A stretch of DNA of 64,000 bases, from NCBI GenBank assembly GCA_045106715.1, contig JBGCFC010000009.1, forward strand, positions 1 to 64,000. The letters are read 5' to 3'. The notes below the pieces were generated by a model. That model saw only the letters and a list, made by a program, of their open reading frames with translations. It searched no databases and was not told the origin of the DNA. Origin of the DNA: Sandaracinaceae bacterium (GTDB lineage Bacteria > Myxococcota_A > Polyangia > Polyangiales > Sandaracinaceae). Both the position numbers and the translations under genes were made by a program. Positions 11,604 to 59,107 of the stretch are shown one piece after another; the stretch's first letter is position 1; each line of letters starts with the position of its first letter.

Positions 11604-13461
11604 TCAGAAGCTGGAGATGCGGATCAAGAATACGTTGTTGCGCTCGTCGCCTGCGTACGTCGTCCCGCTGGGCAGCGTGATGCCGTCGCGCCCGAATGTG
11701 CCGACGACCACGAGCGCACCGAAGGGGTCGGCCTGCACGGCAACCACGTCCTCTCGGTCTTCCCCGGAGAGTCCCTGGGCGAACAGGGTGAAGTTCTCGT
11801 CTGCGTCGACCTGCGCGAAGTACGCGTCGAGGCCGCCGACCGAGGGGCCGAGTGTGCCTCGAGGGGGCAACGGGAGCTGACCCCCGAAGCCGCCCGCCTC
11901 GAAGAGCGTGTCGCGTCCGTCGAAGGTCAGGCCCTGGGGGCTCACGAAGTCGGGACCCGCGTGCACTCGTGTGTAGCGGTGGGTCCCGTCGGCCGAGAAC
12001 ACCGCGACAAACGCGTCGTTCGTCCCTTCGGCGGTCCAGGTGGTCTCGGTCCACGGCGGCGCGAAGGTGCCGTTGAACGTCCCCGCGACGGCGAGCGTGC
12101 CGTCCCCGGCGACCGCCGCGGTGGCTGCGAATACGGGCACGGCCAGCGTCGGCACGAGGGCGGCCGACAGCACGACAACATGGCGGCCGTCGACGTGCCG
12201 GCGAGCTCGAGCGGGGTGCCGGTGTTGCCTTGCACGACGATGTGCTGGCCCTTGGCGTTGAGGCCATCGAGCTCGTAGCGACCGTCGGCGTCTTCGAGGC
12301 GCCGCCGTGCGACCTCTGTCGTTCCATCGAACAGCAAGACGTCGAGCCGGTCAGGGGAGCTGCCCTCGCGCGACGAGACGGCCACGACGAGCCCGGCCTC
12401 GATGGCCGCGAGCCCCGCAACGCTCTGGATAGTGGCTCCCTCGACCGTGGGGGAGAGGGTAGCCACCTCGCTGCCGTCGGTCGTCGAGTGAAGCGTGATG
12501 CCGGACGCGGTGGCGACCGCGAGCTGCGGCTCTCCTGGCACGGCGACGAGCGCCACCCCGCGAGCCGGCAAGCGGTGCACGAAGCGGAAGCGGCCATCGG
12601 CTTCGAGCGCCAAGAGATAGGTGCCGAACGTCTCGGTGGACCCGTCCCCGTCGAGGTCGGCCGGCGTGTCCACGATGAGGCCGAGGTAGACCGCGCCGTC
12701 GGCGTCGATCGTCATCCCGAACGCCGGAGCGTCGTCGGCCGCCGGGAACGTCCGCTCCCACGGCACACTTCGGCAGCGGCTGCTCATGCACATCCCGACG
12801 GGGCAGAAGGCGCCCGCCTCGTCGACGTCACCGTCGCAGTCGTCGTCGCGCGTATTGCAGCTCTCGGTCGCGTCGGGGTTCAGGTCGGCCCGCGTGTCGT
12901 CGCAGTCGCGGCCGCTGTTGATCGAGCCGTCGGGGCGGGGGTTGCTGCATCGCGCGTCGATGAAACCATCGTTGTCGTTGTCGGCTTCGCCGTCGCCCGC
13001 CAGCGTCGTCGGGTCGCAGTCCTCGTCGAGCGTGGCCCCTTCGCCTGCGCAGATCTCCGCCCCCTCGCTGTAACGGCGTGGGTCTGTGTCGTCGCAGTCC
13101 GCTCCGCCGCACGAAATCCGGTTGTGTTCCCACCGGCCGAGTCGCCGCCGACCGCCAGGCGCGCGGGGTCCCGATCCAGGTCGGGGTCTTCGCAGTCGTC
13201 TTCCACACAAGCGTCCATCTCCTCGTCGCAGAAGAGCGTCGCGTCGCACGGTGCGGGGGTGGCCATGCCGCCGTCCGAGTCGGCGGGTGCATCGGTGGAG
13301 CAGACTTCGCTTCCGTTGCAGAAGACGCCATCGTCGCACTCGTCGTCATTGGTGCAGCGCACCCGCGTCGAGGCGTCGATGCCGCCGTCTTCCTGCGCGG
13401 TGTCGTCGCACCCGGCGGCGAGCAAGACGGAGAGGCACGGCGGAATGAAGAGGCGCTTCAT
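11604..13461 (-). pseudogene. MopE-repeat lipoprotein disrupted by two single-nt frameshifts
   Basis: The N-terminus MKRLFIPPCLSVLLAAGCDD...CDDGVFCNGSEVC is paralogous to the 8050..11541 N-terminus. The coding signal moves from frame 13461 to frame 13339 at about 13110-13160, and then to frame 12173 at about 12175-12215. The C-terminal part ends ...FLIRISSF. Confidence 0.5.
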
Positions 13462-13485
13462 TCCTCCATCGTATCAGCTGGTACC

Positions 13486-46923: not shown

Positions 46924-47003
46924 CGTACCTTCCGCCGCGTCCCGCGTGCTCGGAATCGAGTGCCCAAGCCGGCAGCCGCCGGGCGGCGGGTGTAGCTACG
47001 GAG

Positions 47004-48386
47004 ATGCTCCACCGCGTCACGACCCTCACCACGCTGACGATCCTGCTTCTTGGTTGCGACGGCGGCGAGGGTGTTCCCAACGCGTCGATGGATGCCGCGC
47101 CCGTGTGCACGGCCGACTCCTGCGACGATGGGCTGTTCTGCAACGGAGCGGAGACATGCGGGGCCGACGGCGCGTGCGCGCCGGGAACGGCACCGTGCGC
47201 GGTGTGCGACGAGACGGCGGATCGCTGCGACGACTGCGCGACGATGGGAGACGCGGACGGCGACGGGGCCATCTCCCTCGGGTGCGGGGGACGACTGCGA
47301 TGACAACGACGCGCGGAGGTTCCCGGGGGCGACCGAGATCTGCGACGCGGAGAACCTCGACGAGGACTGCGACGGGTCAACCATCGGGGAGATGGGCGGA
47401 GACCGGGACGGGGACGGATATGTCCACGCTCTGCTGCAATGGCGCTCAGTGCGGTGACGACTGCGACGACACGCGGATCGCGGTCAACCCGGGTGCAGGC
47501 GAGATCTGCAACGAAGTCGACGACGACTGCAACGGCATGATCGACGAGGGCGTGCTTCTGACGTTCTACCGGGACGTGGACGGAGACAACTTCGGCGACG
47601 ACACCATGACGACGCTCGGCTGCTCGGCGACCGTGGGGTTTACCGTCGCTCCCGGCGATTGCGACGACATGAGCGCGGCGAGGAACCCGGGCAACCCCGA
47701 GGACCGCGCTGTGCAGCACGCCGCTGTTCGGCGGTGGCGTGAGCGGCATGTTCCTCGCGCGGGCGTCTGAGCGTCGCGGGGCCGCTGCCTACTACGACGA
47801 CCCGCTGGAGCTGGGCTACGGCGAACTGAGCTTCGCCCCGACCGTGGCCATCAATGCGCCCGCGGACCCCGGTTTCCTTCAGTCGGGTCTTTCGTTGGTG
47901 CTCGCGGACGACCCTCCAGGAGAGCTGCTCGGAACGGTCGACATCTCGAGCACCCCCACGGGCGTGCCGTTCCGTCGGACGGGGCTCGCCGTGGAGTGGT
48001 GGTTCTATGTGCCCTTCGTGGGCGACGATGACCGTCTCGTCATCCGGCAGCTCACCGGCAGCGGCAATGGAGCGATACTCGGGACGTGCAGCGTGCCACC
48101 GAGCGCGGAGGTCCAGGAGGCGGGGGCGAGCGAGCACTCGATCGAGCTCAGGTACCGCCCGGCCAACAGCCACACGGGCGCGACCAAGCGCGTGCAGGTC
48201 TGGCTCGACGGCGCGATGGTGTGTGAGTCCCTCGACGCGCGCTTGCCTGATTGGGCGCAGGGGCAGGAGCTCTTCGCCGGCATGACCGGCGAGAACCGGG
48301 CGACCCCGGGCGTGTCCATCCGATGGATCCGAGCGGACAGTGCGTCCAGTCTCGCGCCGGTGGAGCTGGCGGGAAGCTGCCTCTGA
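47004..48386 (+). pseudogene. MopE-repeat lipoprotein with C-terminal lectin/LamG-like domain, interrupted by three 1-nt frameshifts
   Basis: The N-terminus is MLHRVTTLTTLTILLLGCDGG. The reading frame moves 0->1 at about 47286-47290 (a GGGGG run), 1->2 at about 47420-47425, and 2->0 at about 47690-47740. Each segment carries coherent CGDDCDD...NPGAxEICN..DDDCNG motifs. Confidence 0.5.
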
Positions 48387-56476: not shown

Positions 56477-56740
56477 GTGGGTGTCTCGTATGAATGGAGG
56501 GGGCAATGGGTGCCGGCGTGCCACGAATGCTCGAACTCGGAAGCCGACTGCGACCAGGAGAATGGTGCCCACGCGTCGTTCACCCGCTGCGGTGAGAACG
56601 CCCGAGGGGAGGGCGGAGGCGCCACCTGCGCGGAGGAAGACGGAGTGATGCGGTGCCAAGGTCACTGTGGGCCGATCCTCCGCCCGGGCTGCCAGAGATT
56701 CAGCTGGGGGCGCGACGCCGACGCGGCTTTCACACGCTGA
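56477..56740 (+). CDS. Candidate small Cys-rich ORF (8 Cys in 87 aa), speculative
   Basis: GC3 is about 77 % and there is no signal peptide. Cys clusters include CHECSNSEADC...CGEN...TCAEED...CQGHCGPILRPGC. A second Cys-containing ORF (56667..56858) continues in another frame, so a frameshift cannot be excluded. Confidence 0.2.
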   Translation: MGVSYEWRGQWVPACHECSNSEADCDQENGAHASFTRCGENARGEGGGATCAEEDGVMRCQGHCGPILRPGCQRFSWGRDADAAFTR

Positions 56741-56916
56741 ACTGGGGCGCGGCGCCGCCGAGCAGTGTCAGGCGTACTGCGACGACAACGCCGGCGATTG
56801 CTACACCGTCGAGACCTCGCCTTCGCCCGAGTGCGACGAATCCCGATTCGGGTGCTGAGGACAACCCGTCCATCATGGCTTGCGACTAGCCGAACGCGGT
56901 TCGCGCTCCGAACGCG

Positions 56917-58157
56917 TCATCGCAGGACGCGGAGAGCCTTGCTCTGGGGGGCGGCGATGGGGCTGGGGTCCTCCCAGTCCTCCTCGACGAGGTCGAAGCG
57001 GCCGTGGTCGAAGGGCTGCCCGATGCCCACCTCGTTCTGCACCAGCCGCTCGCGCTTCCCGCGTCGGCGATGATCGAGGGCGCGGTGGTAGCAGTAGGGG
57101 TTGTTGCCTGGGCGGCCCAACAGAACCGACGAGGTCCAGGTGCAGCCCGCTCGGCACTCTTCGGCGTAGTAGCAGCCGCGGCAGTAGCCCCAGAGCGCGC
57201 GTCGACTTCGCGGTCGCGCACATAGCGAAGTGGAGGCGTGTCCTCCCAGATGTCCCGGACCGATCGCTCGCGAACGGAGCCTCCGACCCAGGAGGCGCTC
57301 GGAAGCGACGGGCAGCCCTTGATGCTGCCGTCGGACTCGATGCCAAGCGCGCTGACGCCTGCGATGCACCCACCCCAGGCGCGTGAGTCGTCGATCCCGC
57401 GTCCGCGCAGGGTCGTCTCCTCGGGCCCGAAGTACCCGACGTTGTTGCCAGGGAACAGCAGGAGCCCCTCCCGCGCGCCGCGTTCGGCGAGCTCCCCCAG
57501 CTTTGGGAACACCTCGATCAGCTCCCACGGCTGCAGGAGCCAGTGCGGCCGCTCGGCGGCGCGTCCCATGGGCACGGTCATCGCGAGCTGCCAGCCCGTG
57601 GCCCCGTGCGCGCGGAGGTGGTCGTAGATCCCGTCCAGCTCCGGAAACGAGAGGCGGTTGATCTGTGAGTTCCCGGTGACCACCAGGCCCGCCTCGACGG
57701 CGTTCTTCATGCCTTGCGTCGCCGCGTCGAAGGCGCCGCGAAGGCCGCGCTGGAGGTCGTGGGTGTCCCGAAGCCCGTCGATCGAGAAGCTCACCGCGTC
57801 GAGGCCCGCGTCCTTCGCGGCGCGCGCGCGCTCCGCGGTCAGCGACCGGCCGCCACTCACCATCGCGGCGCGCATGCCGCGGTCGGCGATCGCGCCGATG
57901 ATGGTCGTCCAGTCCTCGCGCAGGTAGGCCTCGCCGCCGATGAGCACGACCTCGTGAGTCCCCATGTCGGCCAGCTGCGCGACGACGTCGAGGGCCTCCT
58001 CGGTGCTCAGTTCGTTGGAGCGTGGTTTGCCGGCCCGCGAGCCGCAATGATGGCAGGACAGATCACACGCGAGCGTGATTTCCCACACCACATAGCGGAG
58101 CTCCGTGGCGCGCTCGTCTCCAGGACGAGGGACGCGGCCCCCGCCGACGTCGTTCAA
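56917..58157 (-). pseudogene. Radical SAM / SPASM-domain protein with an apparent frameshift near 57193-57205
   Basis: The TTG start at 58157 is the only in-frame start. The CX3CX2C motif is ACDLSCHHCGS. The twitch/SPASM cysteines ...GCPSLP... and, in the other frame, ...LWGYCRGCYYAEECRAGCTWTSSVLLGRPGNNPYCYHRAL are intact. Coding switches from frame 58157 to frame 58047 inside a gcgcgc run. Confidence 0.55.
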
Positions 58158-58321
58158 GAGCCCGCGTCGTCAGCGCCGGCGCTCGCACCACTGTCGGCCG
58201 CGGCGGCGTCGGTCATATCGTCCCCCCCGGCGTCGGGTGGCGGGTCGGGCGGTACCCCATAGACGCAGCCCGCCGTGGCGAGCAGCAGCGCTCCTGCGAC
58301 GGCCTTTCCGGCCCTCTTCTT

Positions 58322-58567
58322 TCACGTGTGTCCACACCAGGGACAGTCTGTCCCGTCCCTCAAGGGGGTTCGGCACGTCAGGCAAGGCGATAGCGACATC
58401 CGCCGAGATTCTGTGAAGACGTGCTCGGCGTCAAGCAAGCCCTCCTCCAACGCTCCCTGGGCGCGCCCACGGTCGTCCGTTGCTCGCTGTGCCGGACAAT
58501 CGTAGAGACCGGGACCGTCCGGATCGTGTCTGTGCTCCGGAAGCTTCGCCGCGACCTCGGACACCAT
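58322..58567 (-). CDS. Candidate small Cys-containing ORF upstream of the radical SAM gene, speculative
   Basis: The 81-aa product has 6 Cys and ends ...SPCLTCRTPLRDGTDCPWCGHT. GC3 is about 72 %, which is low for this genome. It lies 165 nt upstream of the radical SAM start in a 950-bp lower-GC gap. Confidence 0.2.
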   Translation of the reverse strand: MVSEVAAKLPEHRHDPDGPGLYDCPAQRATDDRGRAQGALEEGLLDAEHVFTESRRMSLSPCLTCRTPLRDGTDCPWCGHT

Positions 58568-59107
58568 GCAGTAGCCGAGAGCGCTCGCTTCTTCGGGGCC
58601 TCGATGGTCATCCGCACCTCAGCCGGTCTGCGTCCGCGCGCCCGCAACCGTCATGAAATAGCGCCGCTGTGGCACAAACAGGCGCCTTCACCTCACGCGA
58701 GGGGACGAGGGCTTCTTCGACCGCGAAGAGGAAGCACGCCTCGGTCTGAGGGCTCGCCTCGCCCACGACGACAGCCGTGTCGGCCAGTGGAACTTGGGCC
58801 TCTTGTACCGGATCATGGACACGATCCGCGGGGTCGAGATCGGGTCGACGTTTCCCATGCCGCGTGAGGTGCTGCAGTACACGCCGTTCACCCGTCTGTA
58901 TCCGATGGGTCATCCCGCACGTGCATGGAGCCCGTTCATCAGCAAGCCGCGCCGCCGACCCCGCCGAGGGCATCCTCGAGGTGGTGGTCCCCGCGTCTCA
59001 AGTGGAAGGACTCGAAGGCGGAGCGACGTACGACTCCTCCGCGCAGTGGCACGACCTGCCCAGCTGAAGCACGGCCTCGACGAGTGGGTGTCTGAACGTG
59101 AACGCGC

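What the first reader, a model, noticed from the sequence alone, without database searches (positions are those of the whole stretch)
56477..58567. Radical SAM/SPASM enzyme flanked by Cys-rich small ORFs – possible RiPP-like locus (gene itself frameshifted)
The radical SAM gene has a CX3CX2C cluster plus SPASM-type auxiliary cysteines, which is the class that matures Cys-rich peptides. Two unannotated small Cys-rich ORFs lie nearby. One, 165 nt upstream on the same strand, is 81 aa with 6 Cys and ends ...DCPWCGHT. The other is a convergent 87-aa ORF with 8 Cys immediately downstream. The surrounding 950-bp gap (58160-59100) has lower GC and contains a perfect inverted repeat GGGACAGtCTGTCCC (about 58341-58355). 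The radical SAM reading frame breaks in a gcgcgc run at about 57193-57205.
Basis: inference. Interest (0 to 1): 0.5.

Follow-up and report, generated by a model that had tools for sequence, protein, structure and literature searches.

The report
Splicease-like radical SAM with YG-motif partner
The locus is a two-gene cassette, common in Myxococcota, of a peptide-modifying radical SAM enzyme and a small exported protein carrying the Tyr-Gly motif such enzymes act on, but in this assembly both genes have broken reading frames, which may be sequencing errors.

Summary
The radical SAM/SPASM gene is real (56917-58157, minus strand). Its frame breaks at about 57198-57203. It is not a housekeeping enzyme. 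Its nearest curated families are two peptide-maturase families, TIGR04103 and TIGR03913, and it scores below both cut-offs.

The true partner is neither Cys-rich ORF as drawn. It is a small gene (58154-58399, minus strand) whose stop overlaps the enzyme's start.

79 of 83 related loci carry 1-5 such genes. 79% of Tyr after the ribbon are followed by Gly. Substrates of both sister clades share the hydrophobic-Tyr-Gly motif. This is the XYG site where published spliceases (PlpX type) excise tyramine. I infer a splicease-type system; the chemistry is untested.

The 87-aa ORF is an unrelated fragment of a Cys-rich domain, truncated at its N-terminus and shifted in frame three times. The palindrome and the GC dip are at chance level.

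At least seven frame breaks supported by homology lie in this 64-kb window, so assembly error is at least as likely as true decay.

The parts
56917..58157 (-). Radical SAM/SPASM gene, splicease-like. The start is TTG at 58157 and the stop is 56917-56919. It is read in two frames: 57203-58157, then 56917-57198.
   Evidence: PF04055 scores 74.5 bits and PF13186 scores 29.2 bits. TIGR04103 scores 474 bits (cut-off 725) and TIGR03913 scores 436.5 bits (cut-off 591.75). Identity to the intact ortholog P0002/L084 is 75% before the break and 76% after it.
58044..58067 (-). CX3CX2C motif (CDLSCHHC) for the SAM-binding [4Fe-4S] cluster.
57193..57205 (-). Reading-frame break in GACGCGCGCTC. The sequence is 2 nt longer than L084 and 1 nt shorter than Sandaracinus amylolyticus. 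The break separates the first 2 of the 7 SPASM cysteines from the other 5.
58154..58399 (-). Small partner gene, with ATG at 58399. It encodes MSLSPCLTCRTPLRDGTDCPWCGHT, then TGA, then KKRAGKAVAGALLLATAGC-VYGVPPDPPPDAGG... Its final TGA (58154-58156) overlaps the enzyme's TTG start (TTGA).
   Evidence: It is 70% identical to the uninterrupted ortholog in L084. Sandaracinus amylolyticus has the same architecture. It is the only match to the ribbon pattern in the 64-kb window.
58325..58399 (-). Four-Cys zinc-ribbon-like N-terminus.
   Evidence: The four Cys and a Pro are invariant in alignments A1 and A2. The AlphaFold2 model of the family member P0134 has pLDDT 89-95 for residues 1-30, with beta strands. 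Pfam zinc-ribbon hits all fall below their cut-offs.
58322..58324 (-). In-frame TGA between the ribbon and the signal anchor. No start codon follows it.
   Evidence: L084 has sense codons at this position.
58256..58267 (-). Lipobox Cys (58265-58267) followed by Val-Tyr-Gly (58256-58264). This is the only Tyr in the protein and the predicted XYG modification site.
   Evidence: plus the coordinates read.
56477..56889 (+). It lacks about 200 N-terminal residues of its homologs, has a 12-aa internal gap and changes frame three times. The changes lie at about 56728 (T run), 56745 (G run) and 56840 (AA).
   Evidence: phmmer gave 25 hits, the best at E = 3.7e-17 and 63% identity. tblastn with P0267 shows the three frames. 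The clusters include diatom transcripts. There are no Pfam hits.
58340..58354 (.). Perfect palindrome GGGACAGTCTGTCCC, inside the codons R-D-G-T-D-C-P of the small gene. It is at chance frequency.
58400..59107 (.). Stretch with no detectable gene or RNA.
   Evidence: The candidate frames have no homologs and there is no Rfam match. tblastx against the related loci gave only low-complexity noise. No sigma-70-type promoter-like site was found, and one terminator-like site was found, which is the number expected by chance.

Best explanation
**What it is.** The locus is one copy of a two-gene cassette that is widespread in Myxococcota.
- Gene 1 is a radical SAM/SPASM enzyme. It belongs to a clade that is sister to TIGR04103 (the class next to Nif11-leader precursors, which fits the published PlpX-type spliceases) and to TIGR03913 (next to DUF1843/DUF1842 proteins).
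- Gene 2 is translationally coupled to gene 1. It encodes a small protein with a cytoplasmic four-Cys zinc-ribbon-like N-terminus, a hydrophobic signal anchor ending in a lipobox Cys, and a tail carrying a hydrophobic-Tyr-Gly site (V-Y-G here).

**How it most likely works (inferred).** The ribbon docks the protein on the enzyme. The enzyme modifies the XYG site in the cytoplasm. [quoted passage not shown] The protein is then exported and lipid-anchored, and signal peptidase II removes the ribbon together with the signal peptide.

**Shown versus inferred.**
- Shown: gene architecture, conservation, motif enrichment, and homology to annotated sister enzymes.
- Inferred: the substrate relationship, the chemistry, export and lipidation.

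**State in this window.** The enzyme gene carries a frame break and the small gene an in-frame TGA. I put about 60% on assembly or sequencing error and about 40% on recent real inactivation.
For: **Enzyme class**
- The best NCBIfam hits are two peptide-maturase families. All clade members tested score 490-531 bits on TIGR04103 and 430-462 bits on TIGR03913.
- Identity to annotated members of both families is 48-51%.

**Partner gene**
- 79 of 83 related loci carry 1-5 ribbon genes next to the enzyme: 93 downstream on the same strand, 20 upstream on the same strand, 18 downstream on the opposite strand and 1 overlapping the enzyme gene.
- The same pattern hits only once in the 64-kb window.
- No other neighbouring gene is conserved.

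**Motif**
- YG.P occurs 241 times against 6.2 expected. That is 11.6 per 1000 aa, against 0.09 in other ORFs of the same loci.
- 292 of 368 Tyr after the ribbon are followed by Gly, while the Gly frequency is 0.175.

**Sister clades share only this motif**
- 58 of 59 Nif11-type cores next to TIGR04103-type enzymes have YG. There are 99 occurrences against 14.4 expected, and X is Met or Leu.
- DUF1843 partners read (P/L/M)YG...GDL.

**Published chemistry**
- PlpX, PcpX, RcsX and RasX excise tyramine (C8H9NO, -135.06 Da) at XYG (PMC11414181, PMC11626197, PMC10533398, PMC9811515).

**Ribbon as a docking module**
- It is fused to the C-terminus of TIGR03913 enzymes and to the N-terminus of a Tropicibacter enzyme.
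- These score 15-26 bits on the ribbon HMM, against a background maximum of 7.2.
- This parallels the engineered fusion of a leader helix to the C-terminus of RhaX (PMC11414181).

**Export**
- 98 of 132 partners have a lipobox pattern, and 105 of 108 have a Cys ending the hydrophobic segment.

**Assembly errors**
- At least 7 homology-supported frame breaks lie in the window. Those whose junctions were examined (the rSAM, the three in the Cys-rich fragment and two in gene X) can each be repaired by a 1-nt change, several of them in homopolymer runs.
- There is no extra decay after the enzyme's break: 76% identity after it, 75% before it.
Against: - No biochemistry exists for this clade, or for TIGR03913, in the literature I could reach.
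- The enzyme scores below both curated cut-offs.
- The window's ribbon is diverged. It lacks the near-invariant Arg-His and scores only 8 bits on the ribbon HMM.
- The reverse association is incomplete. Three of three sampled ribbon-protein loci had no radical SAM gene within 5 kb.
- Some clade members pair with ribbon proteins that lack YG. These are the Kofleriaceae and Haliangiales forms with folded domains.
- A zinc ribbon in the n-region of a lipoprotein signal peptide is unusual. The Cys sits at position 45 here and at a median of 61 in the family.
- The TGA is a substitution-type lesion, not an indel-type lesion, so it fits the assembly-error reading less well.
Confidence: 0.6

Rival explanations
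1. The cassette and the YG target site are as described, but the chemistry differs. The enzyme might make a Tyr cross-link, epimerise, hydroxylate or methylate at the motif rather than excise tyramine.
For: The enzyme scores below the cut-off of the PlpX-type family (474 against 725). Its identity to the Nostoc member is only 48%. The residues after YG differ: Ala/Gly-Pro-Pro here, against Val/Ile in the Nif11-type cores. SPASM enzymes catalyse many different reactions (established knowledge).
Against: Three sister clades with unrelated substrate scaffolds keep the same hydrophobic-Tyr-Gly motif. The only published chemistry for this branch is tyramine excision at XYG (PMC11414181, PMC11626197).
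Confidence: 0.2
2. One reading: the Cys-rich small ORFs (81 aa and 87 aa) are precursor peptides whose cysteines are cross-linked by the SPASM enzyme, as in sactipeptides or ranthipeptides.
For: The four Cys of the ribbon are invariant and sit next to the enzyme in 79 of 83 loci. Many SPASM enzymes make thioethers (established knowledge). The nearest solved structure is SkfB.
Against: In sister clades the same ribbon is part of the enzyme, not of the substrate. DUF1843 and Nif11 substrates have no such Cys quartet. The sactipeptide models score far below their cut-offs: SkfB 80 against 300, StsB 94 against 625. The 87-aa ORF belongs to an unrelated domain family. The first 56 aa of the 81-aa ORF have no homologs.
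Confidence: 0.05
3. The small protein is only an accessory or activator, equivalent to a Y protein or a membrane tether. The real substrates are encoded elsewhere.
For: In three loci (L040, L078, L083) the adjacent ribbon ORF has only a basic helix and no YG. In L078 the protein with PYG is a separate DUF1843 gene. Ribbon and enzyme are fused in the sister clades.
Against: 119 of 132 ribbon proteins, including the one in the window, carry YG in the same chain. No other conserved neighbour exists.
Confidence: 0.08
4. On the state of the locus: the cassette is truly dead in this organism, with a real frameshift and a real nonsense mutation. It would be part of a 2.6-kb stretch of decaying genes.
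For: Both genes of one cassette are hit. The neighbouring Cys-rich fragment is N-terminally truncated and has a 12-aa deletion, which sequencing errors cannot produce. No gene is detectable in 58400-59107. The TGA is a substitution. The long flanking genes are intact.
Against: Other unrelated genes in the window also change frame, each repairable by 1 nt. There is no extra divergence after the break. Codon scores stay gene-like in both parts.
Confidence: 0.4
5. The gene encodes a housekeeping radical SAM enzyme (a sulfatase maturase or a heme or heme d1 enzyme) that is unrelated to its neighbours.
For: Some databases name the Sandaracinus ortholog 'heme biosynthesis protein'.
Against: AhbD, AhbC and NirJ score 103-143 bits against cut-offs of 500-650. 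No sulfatase maturase model appears among the 25 best families shown. The partner gene is conserved.
Confidence: 0.02

Closest known systems
Spliceases and spliceotides: PlpXY and PcpXY (type I, cyanobacteria); RhaX, RasX and RcsX (type II, Rheinheimera)
   Same: Both have a radical SAM enzyme with a SPASM domain encoded next to one or several precursor genes that carry hydrophobic-Tyr-Gly (XYG) sites, often repeated. Like the non-cyanobacterial types, this is a binary system with no separate Y protein (PMC11414181). A docking element sits either on the substrate or on the enzyme, as in the engineered RhaX-leader fusion (PMC11414181).
   Different: The precursors here have no Nif11 or NHLP leader and no GG cleavage site. 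They have a four-Cys ribbon, a signal anchor with a lipobox, and Asp/Gly/Ala/Pro-rich tails in which YG is followed by Ala/Gly-Pro-Pro. The enzyme scores below the TIGR04103 cut-off. No protease or exporter is linked. The chemistry is untested. I could not read Scott et al., Chem 2022, 8:2659, which lists further splicease types.
[quoted passage not shown]
   Same: Identity is about 50% over the whole catalytic region. Small partner genes lie directly beside the enzyme and contain a hydrophobic-Tyr-Gly/Ala site. The same zinc-ribbon module is present in the system.
   Different: In TIGR03913 the ribbon and a helix are the C-terminal extension of the enzyme (475-519 aa), and the partners are DUF1843/DUF1842 proteins with Y-x10-GDL. 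Here the enzyme has 413 aa without a ribbon, the ribbon heads the partner, and none of 132 partners has Y-x10-GDL. The score is 436.5 bits against a cut-off of 591.75.
TIGR04103, nif11-class peptide radical SAM maturase 3 (Nostoc sp. C057 and 80 metagenome loci)
   Same: It is the best-scoring curated family (474 bits) and the identity is 48%. The precursor lies directly upstream and carries YG sites.
   Different: Its precursors have a Nif11 leader ending in GG (Pfam Nif11, E = 1.8e-13). A small ORF overlaps the stop of the Nostoc enzyme. Neither feature is found here. That PlpX belongs to this model rests on the match of features and on the InterPro class named in PMC11002830, not on a test made here.
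TIGR04133 ('rSAM_w_lipo') radical SAM/SPASM family
   Same: It is the third-best NCBIfam hit (154 bits). Its short name suggests pairing with a lipoprotein, but this reading comes from the name and from my memory, not from a test.
   Different: The score is far below the cut-off of 425. The small proteins hit no NCBIfam lipoprotein partner model.

Membership tests
Radical SAM superfamily (PF04055) | CX3CX2C cluster motif and a Pfam match above the gathering score. | tested here: met
   CDLSCHHC lies at residues 31-38. PF04055 scores 74.5 bits against a cut-off of 29.5.
SPASM domain (PF13186) | C-terminal seven-Cys pattern for two auxiliary clusters, within one polypeptide. | tested here: inconclusive
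   After frame repair PF13186 scores 29.2 bits against a cut-off of 21.5, and all 7 Cys are present. As assembled, the frame break leaves only 2 of the 7 in the first frame.
TIGR04103 nif11-class maturase 3 (PlpX-type splicease, type I) | HMM score at or above 725. | tested here: not met
   The score is 473.9 bits. Intact clade members score 490-531.
TIGR04103 nif11-class maturase 3 (PlpX-type splicease, type I) | Adjacent precursor with a Nif11 or NHLP leader, and a small Y protein. | tested here: not met
   No Nif11 hit was found for any adjacent ORF. No conserved third gene was found across 83 loci.
TIGR03913 GDL motif peptide-associated maturase | HMM score at or above 591.75. | tested here: not met
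   The score is 436.5 bits, matching profile positions 20-399 of 477.
TIGR03913 GDL motif peptide-associated maturase | Adjacent DUF1843/DUF1842 partner with Y-x10-GDL. | tested here: not met
   No DUF1843 or DUF1842 hit was found for the adjacent ORFs. None of 132 partners has Y-x10-GDL.
Spliceotide system (functional class) | A PlpX-like radical SAM/SPASM enzyme next to a precursor with XYG sites. | tested here: met
   The enzyme is 48-51% identical to annotated sister enzymes. The window partner has V-Y-G. In the family, 292 of 368 Tyr are followed by Gly.
Spliceotide system (functional class) | [quoted passage not shown] | not testable with these tools
   This needs co-expression and mass spectrometry. 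The published reaction is described in PMC11626197 and PMC11414181.
Bacterial lipoprotein (PROSITE PS51257-type signal) | Lipobox [LIVMFWSTAG](2)-[LIVMFYSTAGCQ]-[AGS]-C after an uncharged stretch. | tested here: met
   The window has AGALLLATAGC. 98 of 132 family members match.
Bacterial lipoprotein (PROSITE PS51257-type signal) | Cys within roughly the first 35 residues, and actual lipidation. | tested here: not met
   The Cys is at position 45 here and at a median of 61 (range 46-104) in the family. Lipidation cannot be tested with these tools.
Sactipeptide and ranthipeptide maturases | Scores above the curated cut-offs of SkfB-, StsB- and ACGX-type models. | tested here: not met
   SkfB scores 80.4 against 300, StsB 93.8 against 625 and ACGX 62.9 against 400.
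Anaerobic sulfatase maturase and heme (AhbC/AhbD/NirJ) radical SAM enzymes | Scores above the curated cut-offs. | tested here: not met
   AhbD scores 143 against 500, AhbC 116 against 650 and NirJ 103 against 515. No sulfatase maturase model appears among the 25 best of the 56 matching families shown.
Zinc ribbon | Two CxxC knuckles on beta hairpins, and a Pfam match above the cut-off. | tested here: inconclusive
   The pattern is CxxC-x9-CPxC, and the four Cys are invariant. The AlphaFold2 model of P0134 has pLDDT 89-95 and short strands. The Pfam DZR and zinc-ribbon hits score only 12-18 bits, below their cut-offs.

The most novel reading that the evidence does not exclude
Myxococcota use a splicease-type radical SAM enzyme on a large, unannotated family of exported lipoproteins.
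- The zinc ribbon sits in the n-region of the lipoprotein signal peptide and acts as a built-in leader.
- Signal peptidase II replaces the dedicated protease of classical RiPP pathways, and the Sec/Lol route replaces the dedicated exporter.
- The mature products would be membrane-anchored chains carrying one to five alpha-keto-beta-amino acid warheads. These could act as surface-tethered protease inhibitors.
- The same ribbon module has moved in evolution between the enzyme (TIGR03913 type, Tropicibacter), a free-standing small protein (Acidobacteriota loci) and the substrate (Myxococcota).
Probability: 0.3. Interest if true: 0.7.

Novelty: new member of a known kind. Interest (0 to 1): 0.45.

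Why it matters
**For this window**
One Tyr-Gly site at 58256-58261 (the V-Y-G codons span 58256-58264) should be modified by the adjacent enzyme.
- The broken frames should not be read as biology until reads are checked, because frame breaks are frequent in this contig.

**More widely**
- The partner proteins form a large family that carries no names and no Pfam or NCBIfam model. A profile search found 622 hits, and all that carry a name are called hypothetical.
- The enzyme clade has no curated model either.
- If the splicease chemistry holds, beta-amino-acid ketoamides would extend from small secreted peptides to lipid-anchored envelope proteins of predatory bacteria.
- The ribbon would then be a natural counterpart of the engineered enzyme-leader fusions used for protein labelling.
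- Cultured strains with intact copies are available for testing: Sandaracinus amylolyticus DSM 53668, Labilithrix luteola DSM 27648 and Lujinxingia vulgaris TMQ2.

Tried and rejected
- **Small ORFs against Pfam and NCBIfam.** Nothing reached a cut-off.
- **My first reading of the small gene.** I took it for a stand-alone lipoprotein with a frameshifted GTG start. I dropped this when the orthologs showed a single ORF running from ribbon to tail.
- **Two compensating indels in place of the TGA.** I rejected this because the in-frame KKRAGK fits the n-region of a signal peptide, as does SRAKK in L084, whereas the shifted reading VKEEAGK does not.
- **Selenocysteine at the TGA.** I rejected this because the site lies in the variable linker and not at a conserved Cys.
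- **A cyclophane cross-link of the triceptide type at Y-G-x.** This is unlikely, because position +2 is Gly in 29% of sites.
- **A Tat signal.** RLGRAA is not a twin-arginine motif.
- **An anti-sigma factor (zf-HC2).** There was no Pfam hit, and sigma-factor genes lie nearby in only about 5 loci.
- **A fused ribbon in longer clade members (P0041 and others).** None was found.
- **Coding content of 58400-59107.** I tested it by codon scores, tblastx, a protein search and Rfam and found nothing.
- **A promoter and terminator scan.** It was uninformative.
- **The window's own contig record.** It could not be fetched. Only the accession MFK7984994.1 was obtained, so the sequencing technology remains unknown.
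- **Scott et al. 2022 (Chem 8:2659).** It is not held in the library.
- **My first verdict on the 87-aa ORF.** I called it a long-decayed pseudogene. I softened this when all three frame changes proved repairable by 1-nt changes in short runs.
Full report
**1. The observation**

The minus strand carries a radical SAM gene whose start is TTG at 58157. Its CX3CX2C motif is CDLSCHHC at 58044-58067.

The first frame gives a clean enzyme sequence up to ...LRYVRDREVDA. A second frame then continues with ALWGYCRGCYYAEECRAGC... to a stop at 56917-56919.
- The GC3 phase switches at the same place.
- Both parts have gene-like codon scores: 0.48 and 0.44 per codon. True genes score 0.52 ± 0.20 and wrong frames -0.57 ± 0.44.
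- At this point the window is 2 nt longer than the closest ortholog (L084) and 1 nt shorter than Sandaracinus amylolyticus.

The break therefore exists in the sequence as given. It separates 2 of the 7 SPASM cysteines from the other 5.

Both small ORFs exist, but two details need correction. The 81-aa ORF has 5 Cys, not 6. The palindrome lies at 58340-58354.

The palindrome is one of five perfect 7+1+7 palindromes in the window. It lies inside coding sequence and is not conserved in the ortholog.

The GC dip is 0.674 against 0.697, and 17% of equal-sized windows are as low or lower.

**2. The enzyme**

The frame-repaired protein has 413 aa. It matches PF04055 and PF13186.

[quoted passage not shown] Every other model scores far lower, including the heme, PQQ, mycofactocin and sactipeptide models.

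Six intact relatives behave the same way, scoring 490-531 and 430-462 bits. This is a separate clade with no curated model, sister to two peptide-maturase families.

The window's own product is GenBank MFK7984994.1, from a Sandaracinaceae MAG on a contig of 355 kb. The nearest solved structures are SkfB and PqqE.

**3. The real partner gene**

Directly upstream on the same strand, one frame reads as follows:
- MSLSPCLTCRTPLRDGTDCPWCGHT
- TGA
- KKRAGKAVAGALLLATAGCVYGVPPDPPPDAGGDD...
- a final TGA that overlaps the enzyme's TTG start.

The closest ortholog is L084, whose enzyme is 75% identical. It has the same protein as one uninterrupted ORF, 70% identical. Sandaracinus amylolyticus has the same architecture, with a 4-nt overlap.

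Its first 56 codons are only an open frame and have no homolog.

**4. How general the pairing is**

I fetched 80 species-level genome loci for the enzyme and added three others.
- 79 of 83 loci carry one to five small genes with CxxC-x4-30-CP[FWYT]C next to the enzyme: 93 downstream on the same strand, 20 upstream on the same strand, 18 downstream on the opposite strand and 1 overlapping the enzyme gene.
- The pattern hits only once in the whole 64-kb window.
- No other neighbouring gene is conserved.

The family consensus has three parts:
- M-x-L-x-PCPxCxRHVRxxExxCPFC;
- a linker and a hydrophobic segment (RLGRAAxFAFGA...) ending in a Cys in lipobox context. This holds for 98 of 132 proteins by a PROSITE-like pattern and for 105 of 108 by position;
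- a tail rich in Asp, Gly, Ala and Pro, with repeats of D-x-G-G-x-x-(P/A)-(A/L)-Y-G-(A/G)-P-P-x-D-x-G.

AlphaFold2 models the first 30 residues of the family member P0134 with pLDDT 89-95. It models residues 45-58 as a helix and the tail as disordered.

The family has no Pfam or NCBIfam model. A profile search found 622 members, and all that carry a name are called 'hypothetical protein'.

The reverse link is incomplete. Three of three sampled members sat in tandem arrays with no radical SAM gene within 5 kb. This fits a dispersed substrate family.

**5. What the enzyme most likely does**

The key evidence comes from the sister clades.

*TIGR03913 members.* Annotated members in Azospirillum, Burkholderia pseudomallei and Aureibacter are preceded by one to three DUF1843 or DUF1842 genes. 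These read (P/L/M)-Y-G/A-...-GDL.

*TIGR04103 members.* An annotated member in Nostoc and 80 metagenome relatives are preceded by precursors with a Nif11 leader.
- 58 of 59 distinct cores contain YG.
- There are 99 sites against 14.4 expected.
- Met or Leu comes before the site and Val or Ile after it.

*Myxococcota partners.*
- 292 of 368 Tyr after the ribbon are followed by Gly, while Gly makes up 17.5% of residues.
- X in XYG is Leu, Ala, Pro, Val or Met.
- YG.P is about 130 times denser than in other ORFs of the same loci.

Three unrelated substrate scaffolds thus share only a hydrophobic-Tyr-Gly site. This is the published target of spliceases. [quoted passage not shown]

The window's partner has a single Tyr, in C-V-Y-G-V-P directly after the lipobox Cys.

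I therefore infer a splicease-type enzyme-substrate pair. The chemistry itself is not shown.

**6. The cysteines**

The four Cys are not the likely target. In TIGR03913 enzymes the same ribbon, followed by a helix, forms the C-terminal extension of the enzyme. In a Tropicibacter enzyme it is the N-terminus.
- An HMM of the Myxococcota ribbon scores these at 15-26 bits, against a background maximum of 7.2.
- In two Acidobacteriota loci (L078, L083) and one Myxococcaceae locus (L040), ribbon plus helix is a separate small ORF. In L078 a DUF1843 gene lies upstream.

The ribbon thus behaves as a docking or activating module that sits on the enzyme, on its own, or on the substrate. The published engineering result is a parallel: fusing the leader helix to the C-terminus of RhaX makes splicing independent of the leader (PMC11414181).

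**7. The 87-aa ORF**

A full HMMER search gave 25 hits. The best has E = 3.7e-17 and 63% identity, to an internal Cys-rich region of 280-660-aa proteins without Pfam domains. The clusters include diatom transcripts.

tblastn with the closest homolog (P0267) shows that the window copy:
- starts about 200 residues into the domain architecture, right after the stop of the upstream HEAT-repeat gene;
- lacks 12 residues internally;
- runs through all three plus-strand frames to a TAG at 56887-56889.

Each frame change can be repaired by one base in a short run (T3, G4, AA). The ORF is unrelated to the radical SAM cassette.

**8. Are the lesions real?**

The intact Cys-rich-repeat lipoprotein gene at 8050-11541 has two paralogs in the window that also change frame. 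The changes lie at about 13130, and at about 47290 (in a G5 run) and about 47435.

With the enzyme gene (1 break) and the Cys-rich fragment (3 breaks), that makes at least seven homology-supported frame breaks in 64 kb. Those whose junctions were examined (the rSAM, the three in the Cys-rich fragment and two in gene X) are each repairable by 1 nt.

The enzyme shows no extra divergence after its break: 76% identity after it and 75% before it.

This pattern fits indel errors in the assembly at least as well as it fits decay. Two features are not indel-type lesions: the TGA in the small gene, and the truncation of the Cys-rich fragment.

I put about 60% on error and about 40% on real, recent inactivation for the cassette. 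Only the reads can decide.

**9. Comparison and novelty**

Functionally the locus works like a binary spliceotide system. It is not a member of TIGR04103 or TIGR03913, because it fails their score cut-offs and lacks their partner families.

Within the literature I could reach, I found no description of ribbon-lipobox-YG proteins as splicease substrates. The main survey, Scott et al. 2022, covers 189 genera according to PMC10849128 and could not be read.

I therefore file the locus as a new member of a known kind. The possibility of a distinct, lipoprotein-directed type is kept as the novel case.

Noticed in passing
window 46980-48386 (+) and 11604-13464 (-): Two paralogs of the intact Cys-rich-repeat lipoprotein gene (8050-11541) change reading frame. 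tblastn supports changes at about 47290 (in a G5 run) and 47435, and at about 13130. ORF inspection suggests further changes at about 47720 and 12200. This pattern points to indel errors in the assembly, and it bears on how to read the radical SAM frameshift.
   Followed up: partly
window 56477-56889 (+): The Cys-rich fragment has its best homologs in proteins seen in diatom and other marine-eukaryote transcriptomes (for example a cluster containing Proboscia alata). Identity is 63%. This may be an old transfer between eukaryotes and bacteria. The closest full-length relative (P0267, on a 1,084-nt contig with 64% GC) is of unknown origin.
   Followed up: partly
L089 3375-4931, L091 2204-3679, L092 2432-3856, L094 2387-3937, L093 2219-3841: The zinc-ribbon module that heads the Myxococcota partner proteins is fused to the C-terminus of TIGR03913-type enzymes and to the N-terminus of a Tropicibacter enzyme. 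The module has therefore moved between enzyme and substrate.
   Followed up: yes
L078 4665-4904 and 6192-6350; L083; L040 6284-6436: In two Acidobacteriota loci (L078, L083) and one Myxococcaceae locus (L040), the ORF after the enzyme consists only of a ribbon plus a basic helix, with no membrane segment and no YG. In L078 a DUF1843 gene with PYG...GDA lies upstream. This form is intermediate between the TIGR03913 type and the Myxococcota type.
   Followed up: partly
L002 5753-6004 (Sandaracinus amylolyticus CP011125): The GenBank gene call starts the small partner at an internal codon (5792; 70 aa), which removes the first CxxC. The 83-aa reading that begins MTLRLCGAC fits the family alignment.
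   Followed up: yes
L085 5001-5918; L087 4588-5956: Ribbon/YG proteins also occur as tandem arrays of two or three genes with no radical SAM gene within 5 kb. The family is dispersed, and some members would have to be modified in trans if they are modified at all.
   Followed up: partly
L035, L041, L047, L073 (Kofleriaceae and Haliangiales loci): Here the ribbon and lipobox head proteins with folded, Ig-like or carboxypeptidase-regulatory-like domains and no YG.P. These sit on the opposite strand, downstream of the enzyme. The rule that the YG motif is the target does not explain them.
   Followed up: no
L003 5299-5985: The metallophosphoesterase gene next to the enzyme in this ENA metagenome contig is itself split over two frames. 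This locus has no ribbon gene.
   Followed up: no
L090 4733-4948 (Nostoc sp. C057 plasmid): A 71-aa ORF overlaps the stop of the TIGR04103 enzyme by 4 nt. It has no Pfam hit. Its position suggests it is the counterpart of the splicease Y protein.
   Followed up: no
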